From NCBI RefSeq assembly GCF_052049935.1, contig NZ_JBNGZA010000002.1, positions 19,977 through 83,976 of the forward strand: a stretch of DNA of 64,000 nucleotides, read 5' to 3'. The notes under the pieces were generated by a model that ran no database searches, was not told the origin of the DNA, and saw only the letters and a list, made by a program, of their open reading frames with translations. This DNA comes from Candidatus Pelagibacter sp. Lineage in GTDB: Bacteria > Pseudomonadota > Alphaproteobacteria > Pelagibacterales > Pelagibacteraceae. The translations under genes were made by a program, and so were the position numbers. This document shows positions 11,296-53,239 of the stretch, one piece after another. The first letter of the stretch is position 1; every line of letters starts with the position of its first letter.

Positions 11296-11387
11296 TGGCG
11301 GAGAGAGAGGGATTCGAACCCTCGGTACAAGTTTCCTCGCACGGTCATTTAGCAAACGACTGGTTTCAGCCTCTCACCCATCTCTCC
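11296..11387 (-). tRNA. tRNA-Ser (GCT), CCA encoded
   Basis: Minus strand GGAGAGA...TCTCTCC-G-CCA acceptor stem, anticodon arm GTCGT-TTGCTAA-ATGAC, long variable arm, GGTTCGAATCC T-arm. Confidence 0.97.
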
Positions 11388-11455: not shown

Positions 11456-12709
11456 ATGAAAAACAAGTACTCAATATTTTCACTAGTAAAAAATGCTTTT
11501 TCCTATCATGAAAATTGGGAGAAAGCTTGGAAAGATCCAGAGCCTAAAAAAGAATATGACGCTGTTATTGTAGGTGGTGGTGGTCATGGTCTAGCTACTG
11601 CTTATTACTTAGCGAAAAAACACGATATGAAAAATATTGCAGTTGTAGAAAAAGGTTGGATTGGAGGTGGTAATACTGGAAGAAATACTACCATTATTAG
11701 ATCTAACTATCTTTGGGATGCTAGTGCTGGCTTGTATGATCATGCTTTAAAAATTTGGGAAGGTTTGTCTCAAGAACTAAACTATAATGTAATGTTTAGT
11801 CAACGAGGAGTAATGAATCTAGCTCATAATCTTCAAGATGTGAGAGATTTAAAAAGAAGAACTCATGCTAATAGACTAAATGGTATTGATGCAGTTTACT
11901 TAAGTACAGAAGAAGTTAAAAAGTTTTGTCCAATAATTAATACCTCTCCTGATATAAGATATCCGGTACTTGGTGGAACACTACAAAGGAGAGCTGGTAC
12001 AGCTAGACACGATGCTGTTGCTTGGGGATATGCGAGAGGTGCAGATGAAATGGGAGTGGACATTATTCAAAATTGTGAAGTGAAAGGTATAAAAAGAGAT
12101 GGAGATACTGTTGAAGGTTTAGAAACAACAAAAGGTTTTATAAAAACAAAAAAAATTGGAGTAGTAGCCGCAGGTCATTCCAGTGTTATTGCAAATATGG
12201 CTGGTCTTAGATTGCCCTTAGAAAGTAAACCATTACAAGCTTTAGTTTCTGAACCTGTTAAACCAATAATAGATACTGTAGTTATGTCTAATGCAGTTCA
12301 TGCTTATGTAAGTCAATCAGACAAAGGTGAATTAGTTATCGGTGCTGGTACTGATGATTATGTTTCTTATTCACAAAAAGGTAGTCACGATATTGTGGAA
12401 GGAACTTTAAATGCAATCCTAGAGCTTTACCCTATATTTAGTAGAATGAGAATGTTAAGACAATGGGGTGGAATTGTAGATATTTGTCCTGATGCAAGCC
12501 CTATAATTAGTAAAACTTCAATTAAAGGATTATACTTTAACTGTGGATGGGGAACTGGTGGATTTAAAGCTACACCCGGTTCAGGTGATTTATTTGCTCA
12601 TACAATCGCAAATGATGAGCCCCATAAATTAAATGCTGCATTTAATATCAATAGATTTGTTAGTGGTGATCTTGTTGATGAACACGGAGCAGCTGCAGTA
12701 GCACACTAA
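11456..12709 (+). CDS. soxB: Heterotetrameric sarcosine oxidase family, beta subunit
   Basis: [44 protein letters not shown]-terminal EHGAAAVAH. Confidence 0.95.
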
Positions 12710-12984
12710 TGTTTATAATTAATTGTCCGTTCTGTGGTGAAAGAGAACAAAGTGAATTTAAAGCTGGCGGGGAAGCTCACATAGTAAGACCCAAACAACC
12801 TACTGAACTAAGTGATGATGAATGGGCAGAATATTTATTCATGAGAAAAAATATTAAAGGTGTTCAGTTTGAAAGATGGAACCATGCTCATGGATGTAGA
12901 AAATGGTTTAATATGGTTAGAGATACATCGAATGATCAGATAAAAGCTGTTTATAAAATGGGTGAAAAACCCCCTATCGAATAA
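12709..12984 (+). CDS. soxD: Sarcosine oxidase family, delta subunit
   Basis: CPFCG...ERWNHAHGC zinc ligands, FNMVRDT. Confidence 0.95.
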   Translation: MFIINCPFCGEREQSEFKAGGEAHIVRPKQPTELSDDEWAEYLFMRKNIKGVQFERWNHAHGCRKWFNMVRDTSNDQIKAVYKMGEKPPIE

Positions 12985-12993
12985 ATAATATTT

Positions 12994-15900
12994 ATGTCAA
13001 AAAATCTAAGAGTTAAATCTAGTTCGTATATTGATGAAACAACAAGAATTTCATTTAAGTTTAATGGTAAAAAATTATTTGGTTTCAAAGGTGATACACT
13101 CGCATCAGCGTTACTTGCAAATGATATACATTTAGTTGCAAGAAGTTTTAAATATCATAGACCAAGAGGAATAATGACGTCAGGTTCAGAAGAGCCTAAT
13201 GCAATAGTCCAATTACATGATAATTCTTCAAGAACTGAACCTAATGTAAGAGCAACTGAGATTGAGCTTTACGAGGGGTTGGAAGCTTCTAGTCAAAATT
13301 GTTGGCCTAGTGTTAATTTTGACATAGGTGGTATTAATAATTTTTTATCCCCTCTTCTTCCAGCTGGTTTTTATTACAAAACTTTTATGTGGCCTGCTAG
13401 CTTTTGGGAAAAATATGAATATTTTATTCGTAAATCAGCTGGTCTTGGCAAGTCTCCAACTGAAGCAGATCCTGACATTTATGATCATAAATATATCCAC
13501 TGTGATGTTCTTGTAATTGGCGGAGGTATTTCAGGAATAATTGCTGCAAAGTCCGCTGCAAAAAATGGTTTAAAAACTTTAATTGTTGATGAAAAGCCAA
13601 ATTTAGGTGGAACAACAATTTATCAAAATAATGATCATTTTAAAATAAATGATGAAAATTCTTCAAAGTGGTTACAGAACGAAATTGATAGTTTAAAAAA
13701 TTTCGAAAATTTAGAAGTAAAAACAAGAACTAGTGTTGCTGCATATCATGGTTACAATTTTGTTTTAGCAAGAGAAAATTTAACTGATCATATTGAAATC
13801 TCAAAAAGAGAAAACAAAGTAAGACAAAGATTACTAAAAATTAGAGCAAAGAAAGTTATTACAGCAACTGGTTCTATTGAAAGACCACTTATATTTAATA
13901 ATAATGACAGACCTGGAATATTGCTTTCATCAGCAATTAAAAAATATGCTGATTTTTATGGAGTGAAAAGTGGTGAGGAAATTGTTTTATTCACTAACAA
14001 TGATACTGCTTATGAAACTGCTCTTTCATTAAGTGATAAGGGTATCAAGGTTAAAGCAATTGTAGATATAAGAGATGCTAATGAAAATAGATTAATAAAA
14101 TCAATAAAAGATTTAAACATTAAAATTTATAATAACCATACTGTTGTAGATACAAAAGGTCATAAAAGAATTAATAAAGTTTCTATAATGGAACTGTCTA
14201 AGGATGGCACTTCAGTTGTTGGAAATAAAATAGATATAAATTGTGATTGTCTTGGAATGGCTGGTGGATGGACACCTGCGGTACATTTGTTTACACAATC
14301 TGGTGGAAAATTAAAATTTAGAGATAGCGAAAATATATTTGTTCCTAACCAATATAGTTCTGACCAAATCAGTGTGGGAGCTTGTAATGGTGATTTTGAA
14401 TTGAACGATATACTTTCTATATTACCTGATCAAATAAATAAGTATCTTGGTATTGATGAGGAAAGTTTTAAAAGTGTTCAAGTTATTTCTTCGAAAGATA
14501 ATAACTATAGAAATATATGGTTGCTACCATCTGATAAAATTTTAGGAAAAACGAAACCTTTTGTGGACTATCAAAATGATGCTACAGCAAAAGATATAAA
14601 ATTAGCTTTAAGAGAAGGATTTAGATCTATTGAACATGTAAAAAGATATACAACAACTGGTATGGGTACTGATCAGGGTAAACTTGGAAATATGCATGCG
14701 CTTGGAATAATTGCAGAAACAGCAAAAGTTCAAATGGGAGAATTAGGAACAACTACTTTTAGACCACCCTATACTCCATTAACATTTGGAACAATTGTTG
14801 GAAGAAATGTTGGTGAATATTTTGATATTTTTAGAAAAACACCAATGCATGATTGGCATGTTAAACACAAAGCTGAATTTGAAAATGTAGGACAATGGAA
14901 AAGAGCTTGGTATTACCCTAAGAACAATGAAGATATGCATCAAGCTGTCCAAAGAGAAAGTAAAGCTGCAAGAGAAAGTGCTGGTATTTTAGATGCATCC
15001 ACATTAGGTAAAATTGATATACAAGGAACAGACGCTTCAGAATTTTTAAATCGTGTCTATACAAATGCATGGTCTAAACTTGGAATTGGAAAATGTAGAT
15101 ATGGCTTAATGCTAAATGAAGATGGTATGGTATATGACGATGGAGTTACAACTCGTCTAGGAGAAAATCATTATATAATGACTACAACAACGGGTGGCGC
15201 TGCAACTGTTCTTGGTAAGTTAGAAGATTATCTACAAACTGAATGGCCTGAACTTGATGTTTACCTTACTTCAGTTACTGATCATTATGCAACAGCAAGT
15301 GTTTGTGGACCAAACAGTAAAAAAATTCTTTCAAAATTAATTCCAGATTTAGATTTGTCAGATGAAAATTTCCCGCACATGTCATTTAAAGATACAACTA
15401 TTGGAAAGATAAAATGTAGAGTTATGAGAATTAGTTTTACTGGTGAACATAGTTATGAAATCAATGTTCAGGCAAATTATGGAAAGTCTATTTGGAAAAA
15501 ATGCATGGAAGCTGGGAAAGAATTTAATATTACTCCTTATGGAACAGAAACTATGCATTTATTAAGAGCTGAAAAGGGATTTATAATTGTTGGTCAAGAC
15601 ACAGATGCAACGATGACACCTATCGATTTACAAATGGATTGGATAGTCAGTAAGAAAAAATATGATTTTATTGGAAAAAGATCGTTATACAGATCAGATA
15701 CAATAAGAGAAGATAGAAAACAATTAGTTGGTCTTTTAACAGAAAATCCTAACGAAATTTTAGAAGAAGGTGCTCAAATTGTTGCTGAAACTAACAAACA
15801 ACCTGTAGAAATGTTAGGACATGTTACTTCAAGTTATTTCAGTCCTAATCTTAATAAATCAATAGCACTTGGAGTTGTTAGAGGCGGAAAAAACATGTTA

Positions 15901-15999
15901 GGTCAAAAATTATTTGTGCCAATGGAAAATAAAATAATTAATGTGACTGTTGCTGATCCAGTTTTTTTAGATAAAGAAAATAAAAGATTAAATGCTTAG
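12994..15999 (+). CDS. soxA: Sarcosine oxidase family, alpha subunit
   Basis: GDTLASALLAN, RSFKYHRPRG, HVKRYTTTGMGTDQGK, C-terminal GcvT-like folate domain (DASTLGKIDIQG, DDG, RISFTGEHSYEI). Confidence 0.95.
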   Translation: MSKNLRVKSSSYIDETTRISFKFNGKKLFGFKGDTLASALLANDIHLVARSFKYHRPRGIMTSGSEEPNAIVQLHDNSSRTEPNVRATEIELYEGLEASSQNCWPSVNFDIGGINNFLSPLLPAGFYYKTFMWPASFWEKYEYFIRKSAGLGKSPTEADPDIYDHKYIHCDVLVIGGGISGIIAAKSAAKNGLKTLIVDEKPNLGGTTIYQNNDHFKINDENSSKWLQNEIDSLKNFENLEVKTRTSVAAYHGYNFVLARENLTDHIEISKRENKVRQRLLKIRAKKVITATGSIERPLIFNNNDRPGILLSSAIKKYADFYGVKSGEEIVLFTNNDTAYETALSLSDKGIKVKAIVDIRDANENRLIKSIKDLNIKIYNNHTVVDTKGHKRINKVSIMELSKDGTSVVGNKIDINCDCLGMAGGWTPAVHLFTQSGGKLKFRDSENIFVPNQYSSDQISVGACNGDFELNDILSILPDQINKYLGIDEESFKSVQVISSKDNNYRNIWLLPSDKILGKTKPFVDYQNDATAKDIKLALREGFRSIEHVKRYTTTGMGTDQGKLGNMHALGIIAETAKVQMGELGTTTFRPPYTPLTFGTIVGRNVGEYFDIFRKTPMHDWHVKHKAEFENVGQWKRAWYYPKNNEDMHQAVQRESKAARESAGILDASTLGKIDIQGTDASEFLNRVYTNAWSKLGIGKCRYGLMLNEDGMVYDDGVTTRLGENHYIMTTTTGGAATVLGKLEDYLQTEWPELDVYLTSVTDHYATASVCGPNSKKILSKLIPDLDLSDENFPHMSFKDTTIGKIKCRVMRISFTGEHSYEINVQANYGKSIWKKCMEAGKEFNITPYGTETMHLLRAEKGFIIVGQDTDATMTPIDLQMDWIVSKKKYDFIGKRSLYRSDTIREDRKQLVGLLTENPNEILEEGAQIVAETNKQPVEMLGHVTSSYFSPNLNKSIALGVVRGGKNMLGQKLFVPMENKIINVTVADPVFLDKENKRLNA

Positions 16000-16555
16000 T
16001 TATAATAATCCCATAAAAGAAACAAAAGAATATTCTGGTTTAAAAATTCAAGAATTAAAACCAATAATGAAACTTAATTTAAGAGGAAAAAAAAGAGAAT
16101 TTTTGTCTGCAGTTGGAAAATCTCTCAATATGCTTTTGCCTACAGAAAGCAATACATCAACCTCGAGTGAAAATTATACAGCACTTTGGCTAAGTCCAGA
16201 TGAGTGGATGCTATATTCAAATAATGAAATGAATGAAAATGATAATAGTTATGAAGTTGAAAATGAACTCATCAATAATGTAAGTAAAGTTAATTTAGGA
16301 GCTATAATTGATGTAACAGATCATTTTGTGCTTCTTAAATTAAGTGGAGAGAAAATTTATGAATTATTTTCAACAGGTTCACCATTTAATTTTAATGACT
16401 TTCAAAACAAGAACGGTGCTGTAACACAAACATTATTAGCTAAAATAGATGTTATTATTCACAATATAGACAAAAAAAATGTAAATCTATTTGTGCGAAG
16501 ATCTTTCTCTGAACATCTCTTCTCTTGGATTAATGATAGTGCGTCAAGATTGTAA
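15992..16555 (+). CDS. soxG: Sarcosine oxidase family, gamma subunit
   Basis: LWLSPDEW, AIIDVTD, FVRRSFSEHL; fourth gene of BDAG cluster. Confidence 0.92.
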   Translation: MLSYNNPIKETKEYSGLKIQELKPIMKLNLRGKKREFLSAVGKSLNMLLPTESNTSTSSENYTALWLSPDEWMLYSNNEMNENDNSYEVENELINNVSKVNLGAIIDVTDHFVLLKLSGEKIYELFSTGSPFNFNDFQNKNGAVTQTLLAKIDVIIHNIDKKNVNLFVRRSFSEHLFSWINDSASRL

Positions 16556-18155: not shown

Positions 18156-18670
18156 TTTTTATTTTTTTTTCTCCACTCCCATGGATTTATAAAAGGTCCT
18201 TGCCAAACACCTAATTTATTTTCTTTAGCTTGTTTTTCTTGAGCTACAAACTTTTTTGAATATTTTAAATAAGCTACTGCATATCCATTTTTTACCATCC
18301 ATGAATTTACATTTAAATTTTTATAAAAACATTCACCAATAAGTCTTCCATATCTATCTTTATTTGAAATTAAGCATGAAATTTTTTTGTTGGAAACTTT
18401 ATCTCTTAGTTTCTCTGTTGAAATAACACCGCAGTTATATTTTTTATATAAATTGTAAAAAGAAAAAGAAATGAATGGTTTTTTGCAATTTTGCTTGACT
18501 TCTGGTGCATCGATCCCAAATAATCTTATTTTATTTCCATTTATCTTTATAGTATCTCCATCAGTAACTGATGGTACTCCTTCAATTTTTTCTATTGAAC
18601 TTGCTTTTGTTGAAAGCAAAAAAATAAAGAAACTAAAAACTAAAAAGTTTTTTATTTTGTTTAAAAACAT
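18152..18670 (-). CDS. Thermonuclease (SNase-like) family protein, probably secreted
   Basis: Signal peptide, TDGDT, RLFGIDAPE, DRYGR, MVKNGYA, KLGVWQG...PWEWR. Confidence 0.9.
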   Translation of the reverse strand: MFLNKIKNFLVFSFFIFLLSTKASSIEKIEGVPSVTDGDTIKINGNKIRLFGIDAPEVKQNCKKPFISFSFYNLYKKYNCGVISTEKLRDKVSNKKISCLISNKDRYGRLIGECFYKNLNVNSWMVKNGYAVAYLKYSKKFVAQEKQAKENKLGVWQGPFINPWEWRKKNKN

Positions 18671-20003
18671 TGTTCAAAAAATATCCAATAAAGATTAATA
18701 CAGCAAAACCCATTATCCAATTAGTAGCCATAATAGTATAAAAAATATCTTCATAGTTTCCGCCTCTAATATTAATAACATACCACAAACATAAAAAGGG
18801 AAATGCTGTTAATCGTAAAATACTCAAATATAAACTGTAAATCGGTTTTTTGACTGCTTGAAAGACTGCTGTAGTTATAAAAAATACCGGATAAATTGGA
18901 CCAATTAATGCAGCCACTTGTAAATAAATAATACCATGTTTAATCGCTTCTTCATTGTCAGTAAATAAAGAAACTAAATATTCTGCACCAAAAAAAATAA
19001 TTAAACCTGCACAAATCATAAAAGATGATCCAAAAAATAAGGCTTTTTTATATAATTCTCGTATACGTTCAAATTTTTTTGCACCAAAATTTTGTCCACC
19101 TATTGATAGGACAGCTGTATTCAGTCCAATAACTGGTAATAAAAAAACTTGTTCAATTCTTAAAGCTGCTCCATAACCAGCAGCTGCAAGTTCGCCAAAT
19201 TGTCCAATAAAATATAATACGTTAAAAATACCAACACCAATAAACAACATGCTAAACATAATTGGCAGTGATTGTTCTAACAATTCTTTAAGAAGTTTTA
19301 AATTAGGAACAAAACATTCAATTTTAAGAAATTCTCTTAATTTACAAGAATTAACTTTATAAGCTAAATATAAAGTTCCAATTGTTTGAGAAATTACTGT
19401 TGCGATTGCTAAACCTGAAATACCAAAACCTGGAATAAAAGCATATCCCCAAATAAATAGAGGATTTAAAAATATATTAAGAAAGAAACTAAATATTAAA
19501 ACATTTCTATAACTCTTTGTATCACCTTGAGCATTAAGAGTTCCATTGAGAGATATTTGTATCAAAACAATAAATGTTCCATAAAAAATTATATCCAAAT
19601 ATTCTCTAGTAAGAATTATACTTTGTTGATCTGAACCCATTACAGATAACAAAAAATTTGAGGAATTTAGACCAAACAAAGTTACTATCACTGATACGAT
19701 AACAGCGAAAATTACTGATTGTGCAACTAATAAAGAAGCCTTCCTAATTTTTTTTTCTCCTAAAAGATTTCCAATGCAAGCATTCGTTGCAGCGCCTATA
19801 CCAACGCCAACTGCAATAATCACAAAATAAATAGGAAATGATTTTGCTATTGCACCAATTGCTTCAGCTGATATTTTTCCTGCAAACCAAGTATCAACAA
19901 GATTATAAAAAGTTTGAAATAAAGATCCTGTACTTGCTGGTATAGTAACTTTTCTAAGTAATTCCCATATAGGGTCCTTAGTAAGTTTGATTGATTTAGA
20001 CAA
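18633..20003 (-). CDS. MATE family efflux transporter
   Basis: PASTGSLFQTFYNLVDTWFAG, GDTK, G..GLAIATVISQ, duplicated 6-TM architecture. Confidence 0.92.
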   Translation of the reverse strand: MSKSIKLTKDPIWELLRKVTIPASTGSLFQTFYNLVDTWFAGKISAEAIGAIAKSFPIYFVIIAVGVGIGAATNACIGNLLGEKKIRKASLLVAQSVIFAVIVSVIVTLFGLNSSNFLLSVMGSDQQSIILTREYLDIIFYGTFIVLIQISLNGTLNAQGDTKSYRNVLIFSFFLNIFLNPLFIWGYAFIPGFGISGLAIATVISQTIGTLYLAYKVNSCKLREFLKIECFVPNLKLLKELLEQSLPIMFSMLFIGVGIFNVLYFIGQFGELAAAGYGAALRIEQVFLLPVIGLNTAVLSIGGQNFGAKKFERIRELYKKALFFGSSFMICAGLIIFFGAEYLVSLFTDNEEAIKHGIIYLQVAALIGPIYPVFFITTAVFQAVKKPIYSLYLSILRLTAFPFLCLWYVINIRGGNYEDIFYTIMATNWIMGFAVLIFIGYFLNNVFKQNKKLFSF

Positions 20004-20011
20004 ATAATCCC

Positions 20012-20920
20012 CTATTTAAATTCTTTCTGAAATAAATAATTTTTTCCTGATTTTTTTGCTCTATATATCTGACTTTGTCTCATTCTAAAACGTGATTTTT
20101 GAGAAGTTGTTAATTTATCAAAACAATTTGGGCAAGATACTCCCTCTTCATATTTCTTTGATTTTTTATCCTTATTTGATATAGGCATTCTACATCCACT
20201 ACACATTGAGTGTGTGCCTATCTTTAAACCATGTTTTAAACTTATTCTGTTATCGAAAACAAAACATTCGCCTTTCCATAAACTTTGATCCTTTTTAATT
20301 TTTTTAAGGTAATTCAAAATTCCACCATTTAATTGAAAAATGTTCTTAAATCCTTTTTTTTGTAAATAAACAGAAGTTTTTTCACATCTAATACCACCAG
20401 TACAAAACATTGCGACTGGTTTATCTTTTTTAAGTTTATTAAGATACTTAGGAAAATCTCTAAAATTAGTTACGTCGGGATTTACTGCTTTTTTAAAAGT
20501 TCCAACTTTATATTCAAATGGTTTTCTAGTATCAATTATATGAGTATCTTTATTTTTAATCAGCTTATTCCAATCCTTTGGCTCTAAATGCGTTTTCAAA
20601 TTTCTTTCTTTCGAATTTAATTTTAAATTCATAGGAACAATTTCATCTTTTATTTTAACTTTTGGTTTATGAAACGGTTGAAAATCTGAATTAGACTCAT
20701 TGAAATTATCAAATTTTTTAAAAGAGAATAAAGATTTGATTTTTTTTTTTGTTTTTTCAATGTTTGATACTCTGCCAGATATAGTGCCATTAAGACCTTC
20801 TTTGGCTATAATAATAGTTCCTCTAATATTATTATTATTGAAAAATGTGGTTAAAATCTCTTTATTCTTTTTTAAAGATTTAACTTTAATAAATTTATAA
20901 AATCCAAAAACTTTAAACAT
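20012..20920 (-). CDS. trhO: Oxygen-dependent tRNA uridine(34) hydroxylase, rhodanese-domain (UPF0176)
   Basis: GTIIIAKEGLNGT, KVKIKDEIV, IDTRKPFEYKVGTF, MFCTGGIRCEK, GGILNY, GECFVFDNR, C-terminal Cys cluster. Confidence 0.9.
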   Translation of the reverse strand: MFKVFGFYKFIKVKSLKKNKEILTTFFNNNNIRGTIIIAKEGLNGTISGRVSNIEKTKKKIKSLFSFKKFDNFNESNSDFQPFHKPKVKIKDEIVPMNLKLNSKERNLKTHLEPKDWNKLIKNKDTHIIDTRKPFEYKVGTFKKAVNPDVTNFRDFPKYLNKLKKDKPVAMFCTGGIRCEKTSVYLQKKGFKNIFQLNGGILNYLKKIKKDQSLWKGECFVFDNRISLKHGLKIGTHSMCSGCRMPISNKDKKSKKYEEGVSCPNCFDKLTTSQKSRFRMRQSQIYRAKKSGKNYLFQKEFK

Positions 20921-21570
20921 TATAATACTCTACAAACAGTCATTCCATCACCTAATGGAAAAATTATTTGCTCTACTCTATGATCATCTAAAACAAACTT
21001 ATTAAATTCTCTTATATTTAATGTGAATTTGTCATTATTTTTTTTATCTACTACTTCTCCGTGCCACAAAACATTATCAATAATTATTAATCCACCTTTT
21101 CTTGTTAGATGTAATGAATTTTCATAATATCTTTTATAATTCATTTTATCTGCATCAATAAATACCATATCAAATTTTTCATTCTTTAATTCTTCAAGAC
21201 TATCAATCGCAGGTTTTATGATAGTCTTAATTTTATGATCTTGATTAGCTTTTTTAAAAAAATTAACAGCAACTTTGTTTGTCTCCTCATTTTTATCAAG
21301 AGCAATTAACTTACCATCGTTAGGTAATGCAAGAGAAATTGAGAGAGCACTTAGACCAGTAAACGTTCCAATTTCAAGAACACTTTTAATATTTGCAATT
21401 TTGATTATCAAATGAAGAAAATTACACTGCGTAGGATCAATCTGCATCCTTTTTATTTCTCCTAAAGTTTTATTATAATCAATTATCTCTTGTTGGATTG
21501 GATTTAATTCAAAACTAAAATCTTTAATATAGCTTTGTAATTTTTCTGTAATTTCTAGGTTTGCACCCAT
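20920..21570 (-). CDS. SAM-dependent O-methyltransferase, Methyltransf_3 (COMT/CCoAOMT/TrmR-like)
   Basis: LEIGTFTGLSAL, FIDADK, IDNVLWHG. Confidence 0.92.
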   Translation of the reverse strand: MGANLEITEKLQSYIKDFSFELNPIQQEIIDYNKTLGEIKRMQIDPTQCNFLHLIIKIANIKSVLEIGTFTGLSALSISLALPNDGKLIALDKNEETNKVAVNFFKKANQDHKIKTIIKPAIDSLEELKNEKFDMVFIDADKMNYKRYYENSLHLTRKGGLIIIDNVLWHGEVVDKKNNDKFTLNIREFNKFVLDDHRVEQIIFPLGDGMTVCRVL

Positions 21571-21574
21571 TTTA

Positions 21575-23050
21575 TTAAAGTTTTTTCTTTAATATTTCAT
21601 TTATCAATTGAGGATTAGCTTTGCCACCTGAAGCTTTCATTGCTTGACCAACAAAAAAACCAAATAATTTTTCTTTACCGTTTTTATATTCAATTGCCTT
21701 TTCTCTGTTGTCATTAATTATTTTATCAATCAATGCTTCTAATGCTTTTGGATCACTTTGTTGTTTCAAACCTTTTTCTTCAACAATTTTTTGAGGATCT
21801 TGGTCACCATCAATCATAAATTCAAAAATTGTCTTTGCAATTTTACCTGAAATTGTTCCATTTTTTATTAAGTTTACCAAAATAGCTAAATTTTTTGCAC
21901 TAACAGGACTTTGTGAAATCTCTAAATTTTTATCGTTTAAGACTGCAAATAATTCACCAGTAATCCAATTGACTGCTAATTTAATATCTTTATTTTTACC
22001 CATCTTCGCTACAACTTCTTCAAAATATTTTGAAGTTTCTATATCAGAAACAAGAATAGTTGCTTCGTACGGAGAAAGTTTAAATTCATCAATAAACCTT
22101 TTCTTTTTATCATCCGGTAACTCTGGAATATCTTTTTTAATATCATCGATAAATTCCTCAGAAACTTCCAATGGTAGTAAATCAGGATCAGGAAAATATC
22201 TATAATCATGAGCATCTTCTTTCGATCTCATAGATCTTGTTTCATTTTTTTTTGTATCAAACAATCTAGTTTCTTGGTCAATTGTTTGACCTTCTTCGAT
22301 TAAATCAACTTGTCTATTTGCTTCATATTCAATAGCCATCTGCATAAATTTAATTGAATTTACATTTTTAATTTCACACCTAGTACCAAATTCTTTTGCA
22401 CCTTTTGGTCTAACTGAAACATTTACATCAGCTCTCAAAGAGCCCTCTTGCATGTTACCATCACAAGTGCCTAGATATCTCATAATTGATCTTAATTTTT
22501 TAATATAAGCATTAACTTCATCAGGTGATCTTAAATCAGGTTTACTTACAATTTCCATTAAGGCTACTCCAGATCTATTTAAATCTACGAACGTATTTTG
22601 AGGATCAAGATCGTGTATACTTTTTCCAGCATCTTGCTCTAGATGTAATCTTTCAATACCAATTTCTTTTTGTCCCTCAGGCAAATCTAAAATTACTTTT
22701 CCTTCACCTACAATTGGATCTTTAAATTGGGAGATTTGATATCCTTGAGGTAAATCAGCGTAAAAATAATTTTTTCTGTCAAAGACTGAACGTTTATTAA
22801 TTTTTGCGTTTAATCCAATTCCAGTTTTTATTGCTTGCTTTACACAAAATTCATTTATCACTGGCAACATTCCAGGAAAAGCTGCATCAACTAAACTTAC
22901 TTGAGTATTAGGTTCGGCTCCAAATTTAGTTGCAGAAGAAGAAAAAAGTTTTGATTCTGAAGTTACTTGTGCGTGGACTTCTAGTCCTATTATAACTTCA
23001 TACTGATTATCCTTTCTGTTGATTAAATATTCACCTTTGTTTTTACTCAT
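21575..23050 (-). CDS. gatB: Asp/Glu-tRNA amidotransferase subunit B
   Basis: [51 protein letters not shown]. Confidence 0.98.
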
Positions 23051-24504
23051 TTAATCCACCAATCAGTTATATTATTTTTAAAACCAATTTTTTCTTCCAT
23101 GGCATATGCAATGTTTAATATATTTTGTTCATCAAATGCTTTACCAATGATTTGTAATCCTAATGGATAACCTTTTGCATCATGGCCAGCTGGAATAGAT
23201 ATTCCAGGTAAACCAGCTAAATTAACTGGTACAGTAAATATGTCATTTAAATACATAGAAACTGGATCGTCTTTTTTTTCACCAATTTTAAAAGCTGAAC
23301 TTGGTGTAGATGGAGTTAATATTGCATCTACCTGATTATAAGCTTCGTCAAAATCATTTTTAATTAATTTTCTTACCTTTTGAGCTTTGAGATAATAAGC
23401 ATCATAATACCCTGAAGATAAAACATATGTTCCAATCATAATACGTCTTTGAACCTCTGGTCCAAAACCTTCAGATCTAGTTTTTTCATACATATCAATT
23501 AAATTTTTACCTTCGGCTCTAAAACCGTATTTAACTCCATCATATCTAGCTAAATTTGATGAGGCTTCTGCAGGTGCAACAATGTAATAAGTTGGTAAAG
23601 CATAACTTGTATGTGGTAAAGAAATATCAACGACCTCTGCCCCACATTCTTTAATATAATCAATTCCTTTTTGCCATAAATCCTCTATTTCTTTTGGCAT
23701 TCCTTCAACCCTGTATTCTTTAGGTATTCCTATTTTTTTTCCTTTGATATTTTTACTAAGTTCTTGGAGATAATTATTTCTTTTAAAATTAATAGAAGTT
23801 GAATCTTTATTATCAAAAGTACTAATAACCTCATGTAACAAAGCACAGTCCTCAACATTTTGAGACATTGGACCTGCTTGATCTAAAGATGATGCGAAGG
23901 CAACAATTCCATATCGAGAACAACTGCCATAAGTAGGTTTAAGACCAACGGTTCCTGTAAATGACGCTGGTTGTCTAATAGATCCACCGGTATCTGTACC
24001 TATAGTAATGGGAGTTAATTGTGCAGCTACAGCAGATGCCGAACCACCCGAAGAACCTCCAGGCACTAAATTTTCATCAATTGGATTCTGTACATTGCCG
24101 TAATAACTTGTTTCATTTGATGAACCCATCGCAAACTCATCACAATTTAACTTGCCTAATAATATCCCTCCAGCATTCCATAAATTATCTGTAACTGTAG
24201 ACTCATATGTTGGAGTAAAACTTTGTAATATTTTACTTCCAGCGGTTGTTTTGACATTTTTTGTACAAAATAAATCTTTAACAGCTATTGGGATGCCTGG
24301 TAACTTTAAATCTAGATTTGGTTTTTCATCAAATTGTTTAGCTTTTGTTAAAGCATTTTCAAAATCAGTAGTTATATAAGCATTAAGTGTTTTTGATTTT
24401 TCAGATCTTTCTATGAAAGCTTTTGTTACTTCTGTTGAAGAAACTTTTTTTTCTTTAATATTTTTACATAATTTTACTAATGTTTGTGTTGTTAAATCAG
24501 ACAT
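23047..24504 (-). CDS. gatA: Asp/Glu-tRNA amidotransferase subunit A
   Basis: [25 protein letters not shown] amidase signature. Confidence 0.98.
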
Positions 24505-24791
24505 TATTCAACCACCTTAGGTACTACAAAAAAATCTTTATTCTCTTTTGGTGAATTTTTAATTATTTCCTCTTTTATGTTTTTACTTTTAACTTCATCA
24601 CCCCTTAATCGGAGAGTTGTCTCAGCAACAGATGTCAAAGGTTCAACATTATCAGTCTTTAATTCATTTAATTTTTCTATAAACTTAAATATAGAATTTA
24701 AATCACCAGCTAGTTTTTCTGCTTTTGCTTCATCTACAGATATTCTTGATAATTTAGATATATGCTTTATTGTTTTAAGGTCTATTGTCAT
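24504..24791 (-). CDS. gatC: Asp/Glu-tRNA amidotransferase subunit C
   Basis: [10 protein letters not shown]...FFVVPKVVE. Start set to ATG 24791 because a predicted promoter lies at 24812-24840. Confidence 0.93.
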
Positions 24792-24811
24792 ATGAAAATA
24801 AAATACGTCGC

Positions 24812-24840
24812 AAACTATCATCTAACATTAAAATTTACAA
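24812..24840 (-). promoter_or_regulatory. Candidate gatC operon promoter TTGTAA-17-(TGn)TAGTTT
   Basis: -35 at 24840-24835, extended -10 at 24820-24812. Confidence 0.55.
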
Positions 24841-52738: not shown

Positions 52739-53110
52739 CTATTTACCTTTTTTTGTTCCGTACAATGATCTTCTTTGTTTTCTATTTGCAACACCTTGTG
52801 TATCCAGATTACCTCTTAAAATATGATATCTAACTCCTGGTAAATCTTTAACTCTACCACCTCTAATTAAAACAACTGAGTGCTCTTGAAGATTATGACC
52901 TTCTCCAGGAATATAAGCTGTTACTTCAAAACCATTTGAAAGTCTTACTCTGGCAACTTTTCTTAAAGCAGAGTTCGGTTTTTTTGGAGTTGTTGTGTAA
53001 ACTTTTACGCAAACACCCCTCTTCAAAGGTTGTTTTTGTAATGCAGGAACTTTGTTCCTGTTTATTTGTTTAATTCTTTTTTTTCTTAACAACTGGTTTA
53101 TTGTTGGCAT
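52739..53110 (-). CDS. rpsL: 30S ribosomal protein S12
   Basis: [24 protein letters not shown]. Confidence 0.98.
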
Positions 53111-53138
53111 AATTTTATATATAAATTTATTTTTGATG

Positions 53139-53211
53139 AAATAACTGACAGGTTATTTGTGGCAGCGTTTAGTGCCTAACTTAGCACTACATTCCAACCA
53201 AAAACATCGCC
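53139..53211 (-). ncRNA. Structured rpsL leader (cis-regulatory RNA candidate)
   Basis: Minus strand GGCGATGTTT/AAACGCTGCC outer stem enclosing TAGTGC/GCACTA hairpin, then AAATAAC/GTTATTT hairpin; GC-rich island in an AT-rich spacer. Confidence 0.65.
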
Positions 53212-53239
53212 AAAATACTTATTAATTGCATTTTGTCAA
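53212..53239 (-). promoter_or_regulatory. Candidate str-operon promoter TTGACA-16-TATTTT
   Basis: Perfect -35 at 53239-53234; -10 uncertain. Confidence 0.5.

What the first reader, a model, noticed from the sequence alone, without database searches (positions are those of the whole stretch)
20012..21570. O-methyltransferase translationally coupled to trhO: candidate two-gene 5-methoxyuridine (mo5U34) tRNA pathway
Seen: a Methyltransf_3-type SAM O-methyltransferase (EIGTFTG, DADK, DN) whose stop overlaps the start of a TrhO-type hydroxylase (TAATG at 20920), directly after gatCAB. Established: TrhO makes ho5U34 using O2. In Bacillus the Methyltransf_3-family TrmR converts ho5U to mo5U and lies beside the U34 hydroxylation genes trhP1/P2, while E. 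coli instead uses CmoB/CmoA to make cmo5U. Inference: this enzyme, usually annotated as catechol or caffeoyl-CoA OMT, is a TrmR-like tRNA methylase, giving an aerobic TrhO+TrmR route to expanded wobble decoding. That would suit a streamlined genome with few tRNAs.
Basis: partly seen in the sequence, partly recalled or inferred. Interest (0 to 1): 0.7.

Follow-up and report, generated by a model that had tools for sequence, protein, structure and literature searches.

The report
SAR11 O-methyltransferase next to tRNA hydroxylase
In this Pelagibacter (SAR11) genome, a methyltransferase gene sits directly upstream of the tRNA wobble-uridine hydroxylase gene trhO, so it probably turns 5-hydroxyuridine into 5-methoxyuridine in tRNA; this is untested, the enzyme is not a true TrmR, and published work has already linked TrhO to this enzyme family.

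Summary
On the minus strand, gatC-gatA-gatB is followed by a 216-aa Methyltransf_3 O-methyltransferase (OMT, 20920-21570). Its TAA stop shares one base with the ATG of a 302-aa TrhO (20012-20920), which has an intact CTGGIR active site.

For:
- gatB-OMT-trhO is conserved in all 15 Pelagibacterales loci sampled.
- Seawater RNA contigs span both gene junctions.
- More than 100 eukaryotic protein clusters fuse TrhO to a Methyltransf_3 domain.
- Synechocystis has TrhO and a 42%-identical OMT, lacks CmoAB, and contains mo5U.

Against:
- The OMT is not a TrmR orthologue. It is 26% identical to TrmR, lacks Arg-90, Arg-178 and the tRNA-binding loop insertion, and falls outside the TrmR+fusion clade (93/100 bootstrap).
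- Only 1 of 65 non-SAR11 homologue loci has trhO nearby, and none of 84 other trhO loci has such an OMT.
- Start/stop overlap is this genome's default (26 of 56 same-strand pairs), so it shows no special coupling.

The TrhO-then-methylation route to mo5U is already established in Bacillus, and Sakai et al. 2019 already reported the TrhO-OMT fusion and co-occurrence.

Best reading: a non-orthologous ho5U34 methyltransferase, confidence about 0.55. Interest is moderate.

The parts
24504..24821 (-). gatC ORF, the first gene of the row. The true start is probably an internal ATG giving about 95 aa.
   Evidence: ORF list. The equivalent ORF is 95 aa in SAR11 locus L001. Identified by reading the translation and from its position before gatA; no profile search was run.
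23047..24504 (-). gatA (485 aa), amidase subunit of the tRNA-dependent amidotransferase. It overlaps gatC and gatB by 1 and 4 nt.
   Evidence: ORF list. The translation shows the amidase signature GGSSGGSA (my own reading). It forms a cluster conserved in 11 SAR11 loci.
21575..23050 (-). gatB (491 aa). Its stop lies 4 nt before the OMT start.
   Evidence: ORF list. tblastn finds it directly upstream of the OMT in 14 of the 15 Pelagibacterales loci at 70-99% identity. Junction sequence.
20920..21570 (-). Methyltransf_3 (class I, cation-dependent type) SAM O-methyltransferase, 216 aa. It is the candidate ho5U34 methyltransferase.
   Evidence: Pfam PF01596, E 8e-63. No NCBIfam model reaches its cutoff. 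Best PDB relatives are 3r3h, 3cbg and 3tr6; TrmR scores only 67-76 bits. The catalytic Asp, Lys, Asp and Asn are invariant in 16 of 16 SAR11 copies.
21355..21378 (-). SAM-binding glycine-rich motif LEIGTFTG (residues 65-72).
   Evidence: E66, G68 and G72 are invariant or nearly invariant.
21145..21162 (-). FIDADK (residues 137-142): metal-binding Asp and catalytic Lys. TrmR proper has DAAK here.
   Evidence: at the TrmR A135 position, D in 16 of 16 SAR11 copies and A in 4 of 4 TrmR-clade sequences.
21064..21081 (-). IDNVLW (residues 164-169): the Asp-Asn metal ligands. It is followed by the short loop HGEVVDKKNNDKF, which lacks the TrmR insertion and Arg-178.
20918..20922 (-). TAATG: the OMT stop and the trhO start share one base.
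   Evidence: The base rate of such overlaps in the window is 26 of 56 pairs.
20012..20920 (-). trhO (302 aa), the oxygen-dependent tRNA uridine(34) hydroxylase.
   Evidence: NCBIfam equivalog NF001133, 280 bits against a cutoff of 170. UPF0176_N and Rhodanese domains pass; Rhodanese_C is below its cutoff. Present directly after the OMT in 15 of 15 Pelagibacterales loci.
20387..20404 (-). CTGGIR active-site loop of TrhO (residues 173-178).
   Evidence: In E. coli TrhO, C200, T201, G203 and R205 of this motif are essential (Sakai 2019).
18633..20003 (-). MatE-family efflux gene, same strand, at most 8 nt after trhO (the ORF as listed starts at a TTG; the true start may lie further downstream). 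It may belong to the same transcript but is not part of the proposed pathway. It shows that this gene row mixes functions.
   Evidence: Pfam MatE, E 9e-56. Conserved after trhO in 13 SAR11 loci.

Best explanation
The pair is a two-step wobble-uridine pathway. TrhO uses O2 to hydroxylate U34 of tRNAs that read four-codon (NYN) boxes, giving ho5U34. The adjacent Methyltransf_3 enzyme then transfers a methyl group from SAM to the 5-hydroxyl, giving mo5U34.

Shown here:
- both genes are intact, conserved across Pelagibacterales and transcribed;
- TrhO passes its equivalog model and has the catalytic loop;
- the OMT has all the SAM, metal and catalytic-Lys residues of its family.

Inferred: that the OMT's substrate is ho5U34 in tRNA. 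If so, the OMT is an analogue from a different Methyltransf_3 lineage, not an orthologue of Bacillus TrmR. It would have to hold the anticodon loop without TrmR's Arg-86/90/178 clamp.
For: 1. Immediate adjacency and co-orientation of the OMT with trhO, inside a tRNA-related row (gatCAB), in the window and in 15 of 15 Pelagibacterales loci whose OMTs have diverged to 44-84% identity. The chance of two given genes being immediate neighbours is about 2/N, or 0.0015, assuming about 1350 genes.
2. RNA contigs from four seawater metatranscriptomes span both junctions.
3. Family precedent: TrmR, a Methyltransf_3 enzyme, methylates ho5U34 in vivo and in vitro and lies in an operon with a U34 hydroxylase.
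4. More than 100 protein clusters from oomycetes, red algae, diatoms and chromerids fuse TrhO to a Methyltransf_3 domain.
5. One independent bacterial adjacency: in Calothrix PCC 7103, the OMT and trhO are convergent and 12 bp apart. About 0.03 such cases would be expected by chance among the 65 loci.
6. Phyletic pattern in Sakai's Supplementary Data 2. Among gammaproteobacteria with a hydroxylase, a Methyltransf_3 homologue is present in 6 of 11 lacking CmoAB but only 4 of 58 with CmoAB (Fisher p = 6e-4; my counts from the two of three parts read).
7. Synechocystis is scored TrhO+, CmoAB- and Methyltransf_3+. Its SynOMT is 42% identical to the SAR11 OMT, and mo5U was detected in its RNA (PMC12860351).
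8. In a bootstrapped NJ tree, the SAR11 clade falls on the TrmR/fusion side of the split from the SynOMT/CCoAOMT group (78/100).
9. All catalytic residues are invariant in the 16 SAR11 copies, in a genome too small to carry much secondary metabolism (inference).
Against: 1. The TrmR-defining features are missing: Thr at Arg-90, no loop insertion and no Arg-178 in 16 of 16 copies, and DADK instead of DAAK. Lys at the Arg-86 position is not kept in the deep SAR11 branches.
2. The TrhO-fused eukaryotic domains do keep Arg-86 (66/102) and Arg-178 (87/102), and they group with TrmR to the exclusion of SAR11 (93/100). The fusion evidence therefore bears on a neighbouring lineage, not directly on this one.
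3. By score, the OMT is closer to promiscuous catechol-type OMTs (SynOMT 159 bits, CCoAOMT 124 bits) than to TrmR (67-76 bits).
4. Only 1 of 65 non-SAR11 homologue loci has trhO within 6 kb. None of 84 other trhO loci has a Methyltransf_3 gene within 4 kb.
5. The SAR11 loci share the whole gene row, so I treat the 15 loci as roughly one evolutionary event (inference). The row also holds an unrelated MatE pump and a nuclease.
6. TrhO needs no partner. Bartonella, also an alphaproteobacterium, stops at ho5U34, and most TrhO+ alphaproteobacteria in Sakai's table lack any Methyltransf_3 homologue (8 of 34 have one, against 4 of 21 TrhO- species; p = 0.75).
7. P. aeruginosa, which Sakai scores as having a homologue, accumulates ho5U when cmoB is deleted. 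mo5U was not assayed there.
Confidence: 0.55

Rival explanations
1. The OMT is an ordinary cation-dependent small-molecule (catechol-type) O-methyltransferase with no functional link to TrhO. The adjacency would be a by-product of gene packing in a streamlined genome, frozen by SAR11's conserved gene order.
For: - Its closest characterised relatives are promiscuous catechol or caffeoyl-CoA OMTs.
- It has their DADK motif and short loop and lacks the TrmR tRNA-binding residues.
- Homologues outside SAR11 have variable neighbourhoods with no recurrent partner, and only 1 of 65 is linked to trhO.
- Overlapping neighbours are the norm here, and the row contains unrelated genes.
Against: - Immediate adjacency of exactly the two families that perform consecutive steps of a known pathway has a chance probability of about 0.0015.
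- There is an independent second case in Calothrix and massive fusion of the two families in eukaryotes.
- No catechol pathway is apparent around the gene (my reading of the ORF list).
- Universal retention with invariant catalytic residues in about 1.3-Mb genomes suggests a housekeeping role.
Confidence: 0.3
2. The OMT acts on a free 5-hydroxylated or otherwise modified pyrimidine base or nucleoside, for example ho5U released by tRNA turnover or oxidative damage, rather than on tRNA itself.
For: - In the sister lineage (L044, L074), the OMT overlaps the stop of a pyrimidine-nucleoside phosphorylase within a cytidine deaminase / PNP_UDP_1 / pyrimidine-nucleoside phosphorylase cluster.
- The enzyme lacks an evident tRNA-binding clamp.
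- The 5-OH and 4-oxo groups of ho5U resemble a catechol for metal chelation (inference).
Against: - It rests on two closely related contigs from compact genomes.
- I know of no such enzyme.
- It does not explain the fusion of the family to TrhO, which acts on tRNA.
Confidence: 0.08
3. The OMT methylates another macromolecule, either a protein (as has been claimed for the Anaplasma phagocytophilum family member) or another RNA position.
For: The Anaplasma OMT (PDB 4oa5) is a family member from another alphaproteobacterium and scores 85 bits to the SAR11 OMT. Its reported protein substrate is from my own recollection and was not checked here.
Against: - No supporting context was found in the window or in related loci.
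- In the NJ tree, the Anaplasma enzyme groups with TrmR rather than with SAR11 (70/100).
- Sakai et al. themselves counted the Anaplasmataceae enzyme as a trmR homologue.
Confidence: 0.07

Closest known systems
Bacillus subtilis TrmR (YrrM; PDB 5ZW3/5ZW4), the tRNA ho5U34 O-methyltransferase
   Same: Same Pfam family (PF01596) and Rossmann fold. Same SAM-binding motif and the Asp/Lys/Asp-Asn catalytic set. Encoded next to a U34 hydroxylase gene. This is the reaction proposed for the SAR11 enzyme.
   Different: Only 26% identical and 67 bits. The SAR11 OMT lacks Arg-90, Arg-178 and the loop that becomes ordered on tRNA binding, and has DADK rather than DAAK. It lies outside the TrmR+fusion clade (93/100). 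Its partner hydroxylase is TrhO rather than TrhP1/TrhP2. Ryu et al. find TrmR orthologues only in Firmicutes.
Eukaryotic TrhO-Methyltransf_3 fusion proteins (Phytophthora, Vitrella, Porphyridium, Chondrus, Fistulifera, Triparma and others)
   Same: The same two families are physically linked. The OMT domain of P0245 is 39% identical to the SAR11 OMT (142 bits). Its best PDB matches are likewise SynOMT (3cbg), Coxiella (3tr6), Leptospira (2hnk) and Legionella (3r3h).
   Different: One polypeptide in the order TrhO then OMT, whereas the SAR11 gene order is OMT then trhO. The fused domains keep TrmR's Arg-86 and Arg-178 and a long basic loop insertion, which SAR11 lacks. They are eukaryotic, on intron-split contigs. 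Sakai et al. 2019 already reported them.
SynOMT (Synechocystis slr0095, PDB 3CBG) and the Legionella (3R3H) and Coxiella (3TR6) O-methyltransferases
   Same: These are the closest solved relatives (42% identity; 153-163 bits), with the same loop length and DADK motif. Their organisms are scored TrhO+, CmoAB- and Methyltransf_3+. mo5U has been reported in Synechocystis RNA.
   Different: No trhO linkage was seen among the 65 non-SAR11 homologue loci, apart from Calothrix. SynOMT is used as a promiscuous catechol OMT biocatalyst. The NJ tree puts SAR11 outside this group (78/100). No tRNA activity has been tested for any of them in the literature I could search.
CmoA/CmoB (E. coli), which carboxymethylate ho5U34
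   Same: They act on the same TrhO/TrhP product at the same tRNA position and serve the same decoding purpose.
   Different: CmoB belongs to a different Pfam family (PF08003 rather than PF01596). They use a different cofactor (carboxy-SAM) and give a different product (cmo5U). They are mainly found in gamma- and epsilon-proteobacteria.
Plant caffeoyl-CoA O-methyltransferases (PDB 1SUI, 5KVA)
   Same: Same family, metal-dependent mechanism, DADK and DN motifs; 115-124 bits.
   Different: They act on small phenylpropanoid substrates in lignin biosynthesis, a pathway I would not expect in SAR11 (own knowledge, not tested).

Membership tests
Pfam Methyltransf_3 (PF01596), class I cation-dependent O-methyltransferases | Profile match above the gathering score over the whole domain | tested here: met
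   211.8 bits against a cutoff of 22; residues 34-214 match profile positions 19-202 of 204.
Pfam Methyltransf_3 (PF01596), class I cation-dependent O-methyltransferases | SAM-binding glycine motif, metal-binding Asp/Asp-Asn and catalytic Lys | tested here: met
   E66, G68, G72, D139, K142, D165 and N166 are invariant or nearly invariant across 86 homologues and in 16 of 16 SAR11 copies.
TrmR orthologous group (tRNA ho5U34 methyltransferase, Ryu et al. 2018) | [quoted passage not shown] | tested here: not met
   The Arg-86 position is Lys in 13 of 16 SAR11 copies but Ile or Ser in the deep branches. Arg-90 is Thr. Arg-178 falls in a gap in 16 of 16 copies.
TrmR orthologous group (tRNA ho5U34 methyltransferase, Ryu et al. 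2018) | Loop (TrmR residues 164-185) that becomes ordered on tRNA binding and carries a basic cluster | tested here: not met
   The loop is 17 residues, as in SynOMT and CCoAOMT, against a median of 21.5 in the TrmR clade and 39 in the fusions. Its net charge is about -1 against +4.5 in TrmR.
TrmR orthologous group (tRNA ho5U34 methyltransferase, Ryu et al. 2018) | Sequence neighbourhood (more than about 40% identity to B. subtilis TrmR) and clade membership | tested here: not met
   26% identity and 67 bits. The bipartition TrmR + Anaplasma + fusions against everything else, SAR11 included, has 93/100 bootstrap support.
TrmR orthologous group (tRNA ho5U34 methyltransferase, Ryu et al. 2018) | SAM-dependent methylation of ho5U34 in tRNA | not testable with these tools
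   This needs LC-MS of tRNA nucleosides, complementation or an in vitro assay.
TrhO (oxygen-dependent tRNA U34 hydroxylase, YceA/UPF0176) | Equivalog profile above the curated cutoff | tested here: met
   NF001133 at 280.3 bits against a cutoff of 170; residues 4-230 cover the whole 229-position model.
TrhO (oxygen-dependent tRNA U34 hydroxylase, YceA/UPF0176) | UPF0176_N + Rhodanese + Rhodanese_C architecture | tested here: met
   UPF0176_N at 79.6 bits and Rhodanese at 48.9 bits are above cutoff. Rhodanese_C scores 22.4 bits, below its cutoff of 26.9, but is present with its CxxC pairs (CSGC, CPNC).
TrhO (oxygen-dependent tRNA U34 hydroxylase, YceA/UPF0176) | CXGGXR active-site loop with the essential Cys, Thr, second Gly and Arg | tested here: met
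   CTGGIR at residues 173-178. The essential residues are from Sakai 2019.
xo5U34 pathway ending in mo5U (hydroxylase plus methyltransferase, as in B. subtilis) | Absence of the competing CmoA/CmoB branch in the same genome | not testable with these tools
The literature places CmoAB mainly in gamma/epsilon-proteobacteria, and none of the alphaproteobacteria in the parts of Sakai's table I read has both CmoA and CmoB.
xo5U34 pathway ending in mo5U (hydroxylase plus methyltransferase, as in B. subtilis) | Target tRNAs with U34 for the NYN four-codon boxes | not tested
   The window holds a single tRNA gene, tRNA-Ser(GCU), which is not a target.
Operon / co-transcription of OMT and trhO | Same strand, no terminator between the genes, and RNA spanning the junction | tested here: met
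   1-nt overlap. No terminator-like site on the minus strand. Metatranscriptome contigs cover 20805-21164, 20763-20953 and 20607-21019. Caveat: the contigs are unstranded and DNA carry-over cannot be excluded.

The most novel reading that the evidence does not exclude
A Methyltransf_3 lineage distinct from TrmR, lacking its arginine clamp, has been recruited as the ho5U34 methyltransferase of Pelagibacterales. mo5U34, regarded as a Gram-positive mark, would then be a standard wobble modification in the most abundant marine bacteria. By extension, the SynOMT/Legionella/Coxiella-type 'catechol or caffeoyl-CoA O-methyltransferases' of Gram-negatives that lack CmoAB would really be tRNA-modification enzymes.
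Probability: 0.4. Interest if true: 0.6.

Novelty: new variant of a known kind. Interest (0 to 1): 0.4.

Why it matters
If the OMT makes mo5U34, three things follow.

- The xo5U pathway of SAR11, a dominant ocean bacterium with a minimal genome, would be complete with two adjacent genes.
- mo5U would no longer be a 'Gram-positive' modification.
- A large set of bacterial genes now annotated as catechol or caffeoyl-CoA O-methyltransferases would need re-annotation.

It would also show that ho5U methylation evolved, or was retained, in a Methyltransf_3 lineage without TrmR's tRNA-binding residues. That would make the published TrmR signature lineage-specific rather than functional.

The test is easy: express the gene in E. 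coli delta-cmoB and look for mo5U. If the result is negative, the pair is an instructive example of misleading adjacency in a streamlined genome. The underlying idea, a partnership between TrhO and a Methyltransf_3 enzyme, is already published, so the gain is extension rather than discovery.

Tried and rejected
- Fetching PDB sequences by id failed.
- The promoter/terminator scan of 17-26 kb was uninformative: fewer promoter-like sites than in shuffles, and only one terminator-like site, on the other strand.
- Clustering neighbours of the OMT in 65 non-SAR11 genomes found no recurrent partner gene.
- Three stand-alone bacterial TrhO genes closest to the fused TrhO domain have no OMT neighbour. 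One has a Peptidase_U32 neighbour.
- A TrhO-anchored scan of metagenome contigs found no Methyltransf_3 gene within 4 kb in 84 trhO loci (80 from this scan plus the four above). The sample was dominated by relatives of one TrhO, P0379 (50-73% identity), so it is narrow.
- Overall charge and pI do not discriminate: TrmR itself is acidic (pI 5.4), and the higher pI of the SAR11 copies reflects their lysine richness.
- I rejected the apparent conservation of Lys at the Arg-86 and Arg-181 positions as evidence. It is not kept in the deep SAR11 branches L013 and L031, and SAR11 proteins are about 12% Lys.
- I rejected the translational-coupling argument because of the base rate of overlaps.
- Literature searches found no SAR11 tRNA-modification data, no link between SynOMT and tRNA, and no characterisation of the eukaryotic fusions or of TSTD2/COMTD1 in this role.
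- I did not run structure prediction. The family fold is not in doubt, and the tools return no coordinates for surface analysis.
Full report
**What is there**

The window comes from a Candidatus Pelagibacter (SAR11) genome; the nearest named homologues of the OMT are Pelagibacter proteins. On the minus strand, a tight gene row reads gatC (24504-24821), gatA (23047-24504), gatB (21575-23050), a 216-aa O-methyltransferase (20920-21570) and a 302-aa TrhO (20012-20920). These are followed by a MatE efflux gene and a staphylococcal-nuclease homologue.

The OMT is a full-length Methyltransf_3 domain (PF01596, E 8e-63). TrhO passes NCBI's equivalog model (280 bits against a cutoff of 170). It carries the CTGGIR loop whose Cys, Thr, Gly and Arg are essential in E. 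coli TrhO. The OMT stop and the trhO start share one base (TAATG).

**How much the arrangement means**

The overlap itself carries no information. In this window, 26 of 56 same-strand neighbour pairs overlap and 43 of 56 are 10 nt or less apart. What carries information is that these two particular families are immediate neighbours, with a chance of about 2/N or 0.0015, assuming about 1350 genes.

Metatranscriptome contigs from four seawater runs cover the region and span both the gatB/OMT and OMT/trhO junctions. The genes are therefore expressed and probably co-transcribed. The contigs are unstranded, and DNA carry-over cannot be excluded.

**Conservation of the linkage**

I scanned one genome per species with an alignment of 86 diverse homologues and obtained 80 loci. 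trhO lies directly after the OMT in all 15 Pelagibacterales loci, whose OMTs are 44-84% identical to the window's. gatB lies directly before it in 14 of them.

Outside that order, only 1 of 65 loci has trhO within 6 kb. That case is Calothrix PCC 7103, where the two genes are convergent and 12 bp apart. No other gene recurs next to the OMT outside SAR11.

A sister lineage (L044, L074) carries the OMT in a different context. There it overlaps the stop of a pyrimidine-nucleoside phosphorylase, in a cluster with a cytidine deaminase and a PNP_UDP_1 phosphorylase.

Anchoring on TrhO instead gave no support. None of 84 trhO loci (four contexts of three stand-alone TrhOs plus 80 metagenome loci, mostly relatives of one TrhO) has a Methyltransf_3 gene nearby.

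The linkage is thus a Pelagibacterales trait plus one cyanobacterial case. Because the SAR11 loci share the whole gene row, I count the 15 loci as roughly one event.

**Fusions**

Among the 150 best representatives of the OMT family was a 507-aa protein, P0245, with Rhodanese + Rhodanese_C + Methyltransf_3 domains. Searching with it found more than 100 clusters of TrhO-Methyltransf_3 fusions, named from Phytophthora, Globisporangium, Vitrella, Porphyridium, Chondrus, Gracilariopsis, Fistulifera and Triparma. P0245 itself lies on intron-split, eukaryote-like contigs.

This is a strong Rosetta-stone link between the two families. It is not new: Sakai et al. 2019 used exactly this fusion, and the co-occurrence of trhO with 'trmR' homologues, to find TrhO.

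**Is the OMT a TrmR?**

No. I verified the B. subtilis TrmR sequence against 5ZW3 and aligned it with the SAR11 OMT. The points against membership are:

- Identity is 26%.
- The SAR11 OMT scores 163, 159 and 153 bits to the Legionella, Synechocystis (SynOMT) and Coxiella OMTs, and 124 bits to alfalfa CCoAOMT. It scores only 76 and 67 bits to the two TrmR structures.
[quoted passage not shown] They find orthologues only in Firmicutes.
- In 16 SAR11 copies, the Arg-90 position is Thr. Arg-178 and the loop insertion are absent in all. Lys at the Arg-86 position is lost in the deep branches.

The eukaryotic fused domains, by contrast, keep Arg-86 (66 of 102) and Arg-178 (87 of 102) and have a long basic insertion.

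A bootstrapped NJ tree of 45 sequences gives these supports:

- 97/100 for the TrmR clade;
- 93/100 for TrmR + Anaplasma + all fusions against everything else;
- 89/100 for the trhO-linked SAR11 clade;
- 78/100 for placing SAR11 (with its sister lineage) on the TrmR/fusion side of the split from the SynOMT/Legionella/CCoAOMT group.

The SAR11 OMT is therefore an intermediate lineage. It is neither TrmR nor nested among the catechol-type enzymes. NJ on 214 columns is a weak method, and a maximum-likelihood tree is needed.

**Context from the literature**

- TrhO followed by TrmR already makes mo5U34 in B. subtilis, so the route is established.
- Sakai's Supplementary Data 2 scores Legionella, Coxiella, Francisella, Acinetobacter, Leptospira, Synechocystis, flavobacteria and Anaplasmataceae as hydroxylase+, CmoAB- and 'TrmR'+.
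- By my count from the two of three parts I read, gammaproteobacteria with a hydroxylase have the Methyltransf_3 homologue in 6 of 11 cases without CmoAB and in 4 of 58 cases with it (p = 6e-4).
- In alphaproteobacteria there is no association with TrhO: 8 of 34 against 4 of 21.
- mo5U has been detected in Synechocystis RNA. That organism has TrhO and SynOMT and, per Sakai, no CmoAB.
- Bartonella, an alphaproteobacterium with TrhO only, stops at ho5U34.
- CmoAB are mainly found in gamma- and epsilon-proteobacteria.
- P. aeruginosa delta-cmoB accumulates ho5U although a homologue is scored present; mo5U was not measured.
- I found no paper that tests any Gram-negative Methyltransf_3 enzyme on tRNA, and none on SAR11 tRNA modifications.

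**Verdict**

The most likely function of the OMT is SAM-dependent methylation of the ho5U34 made by TrhO, giving mo5U34 (confidence about 0.55). It would do so as an analogue of TrmR from a different lineage of the same family.

The main rival, at about 0.3, is an unrelated small-molecule OMT whose position is an accident of gene packing. Minor rivals are action on free 5-hydroxypyrimidine nucleosides, suggested by the sister-lineage context, and action on another macromolecule.

The functional guess is reasonable. However, 'TrmR-like' fails as family membership, the coupling argument is void, the linkage is lineage-restricted, and the concept is already in the literature.

Interest is moderate. 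A simple complementation test would settle the question. A positive result would extend mo5U to a dominant marine Gram-negative and would prompt re-annotation of a large OMT clade.

Noticed in passing
L044:2684-6407 and L074:3467-7192: In a sister lineage of the SAR11 OMT (42% and 39% identical), the OMT gene overlaps the stop of a pyrimidine-nucleoside phosphorylase. The row reads cytidine deaminase, PNP_UDP_1 phosphorylase, pyrimidine-nucleoside phosphorylase, OMT, Hsp20, and has no trhO. This is a second pyrimidine-nucleoside context for this OMT lineage.
   Followed up: partly
L081:4001-6572: On a 248-kb metagenome contig, trhO is immediately followed by a Peptidase_U32 (trhP-like) gene and a small ferredoxin gene. 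The oxygen-dependent and prephenate-type U34 hydroxylase families are thus side by side.
   Followed up: no
P0245, P0271-P0361 (proteins); L165:4530-6524: More than 100 eukaryotic TrhO-Methyltransf_3 fusion clusters (oomycetes, red algae, diatoms, Vitrella, Triparma) keep TrmR's Arg-86 and Arg-178 and group with TrmR (93/100 bootstrap). This implies mo5U-type wobble modification in these eukaryotes. In the literature searched, nobody has characterised them.
   Followed up: partly
L078:5863-7431: In Calothrix sp. PCC 7103, the OMT homologue and trhO are convergent and 12 bp apart. This is the only non-SAR11 adjacency among 65 loci. Its close relatives (Nostoc L032 and L036, Halotia L048) do not share it.
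   Followed up: partly
window 53126-53213 (-): A full-length match to the Rfam rpsL leader/sRNA family RF01823 (103.7 bits against a gathering score of 37) lies directly upstream of rpsL (52739-53110).
   Followed up: no
window 11456-16555 (+): A four-ORF row looks like heterotetrameric sarcosine oxidase (soxB, soxD, soxA, soxG), judged from the translations only. It lies next to the window's single tRNA gene, tRNA-Ser(GCU), at 11296-11387.
   Followed up: no
window 1-64000: Gene packing is extreme: 26 of 56 same-strand neighbour ORF pairs overlap (14 of them by exactly one base) and 43 of 56 are 10 nt or less apart. Stop/start overlap cannot be used as evidence of functional coupling in this genome.
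   Followed up: yes
window 20878 / 23672: One low-depth metatranscriptome contig (run X1, depth 8.7) joins position 23672 to 20878 through 15 unmatched letters. It is probably an assembly chimera.
   Followed up: no
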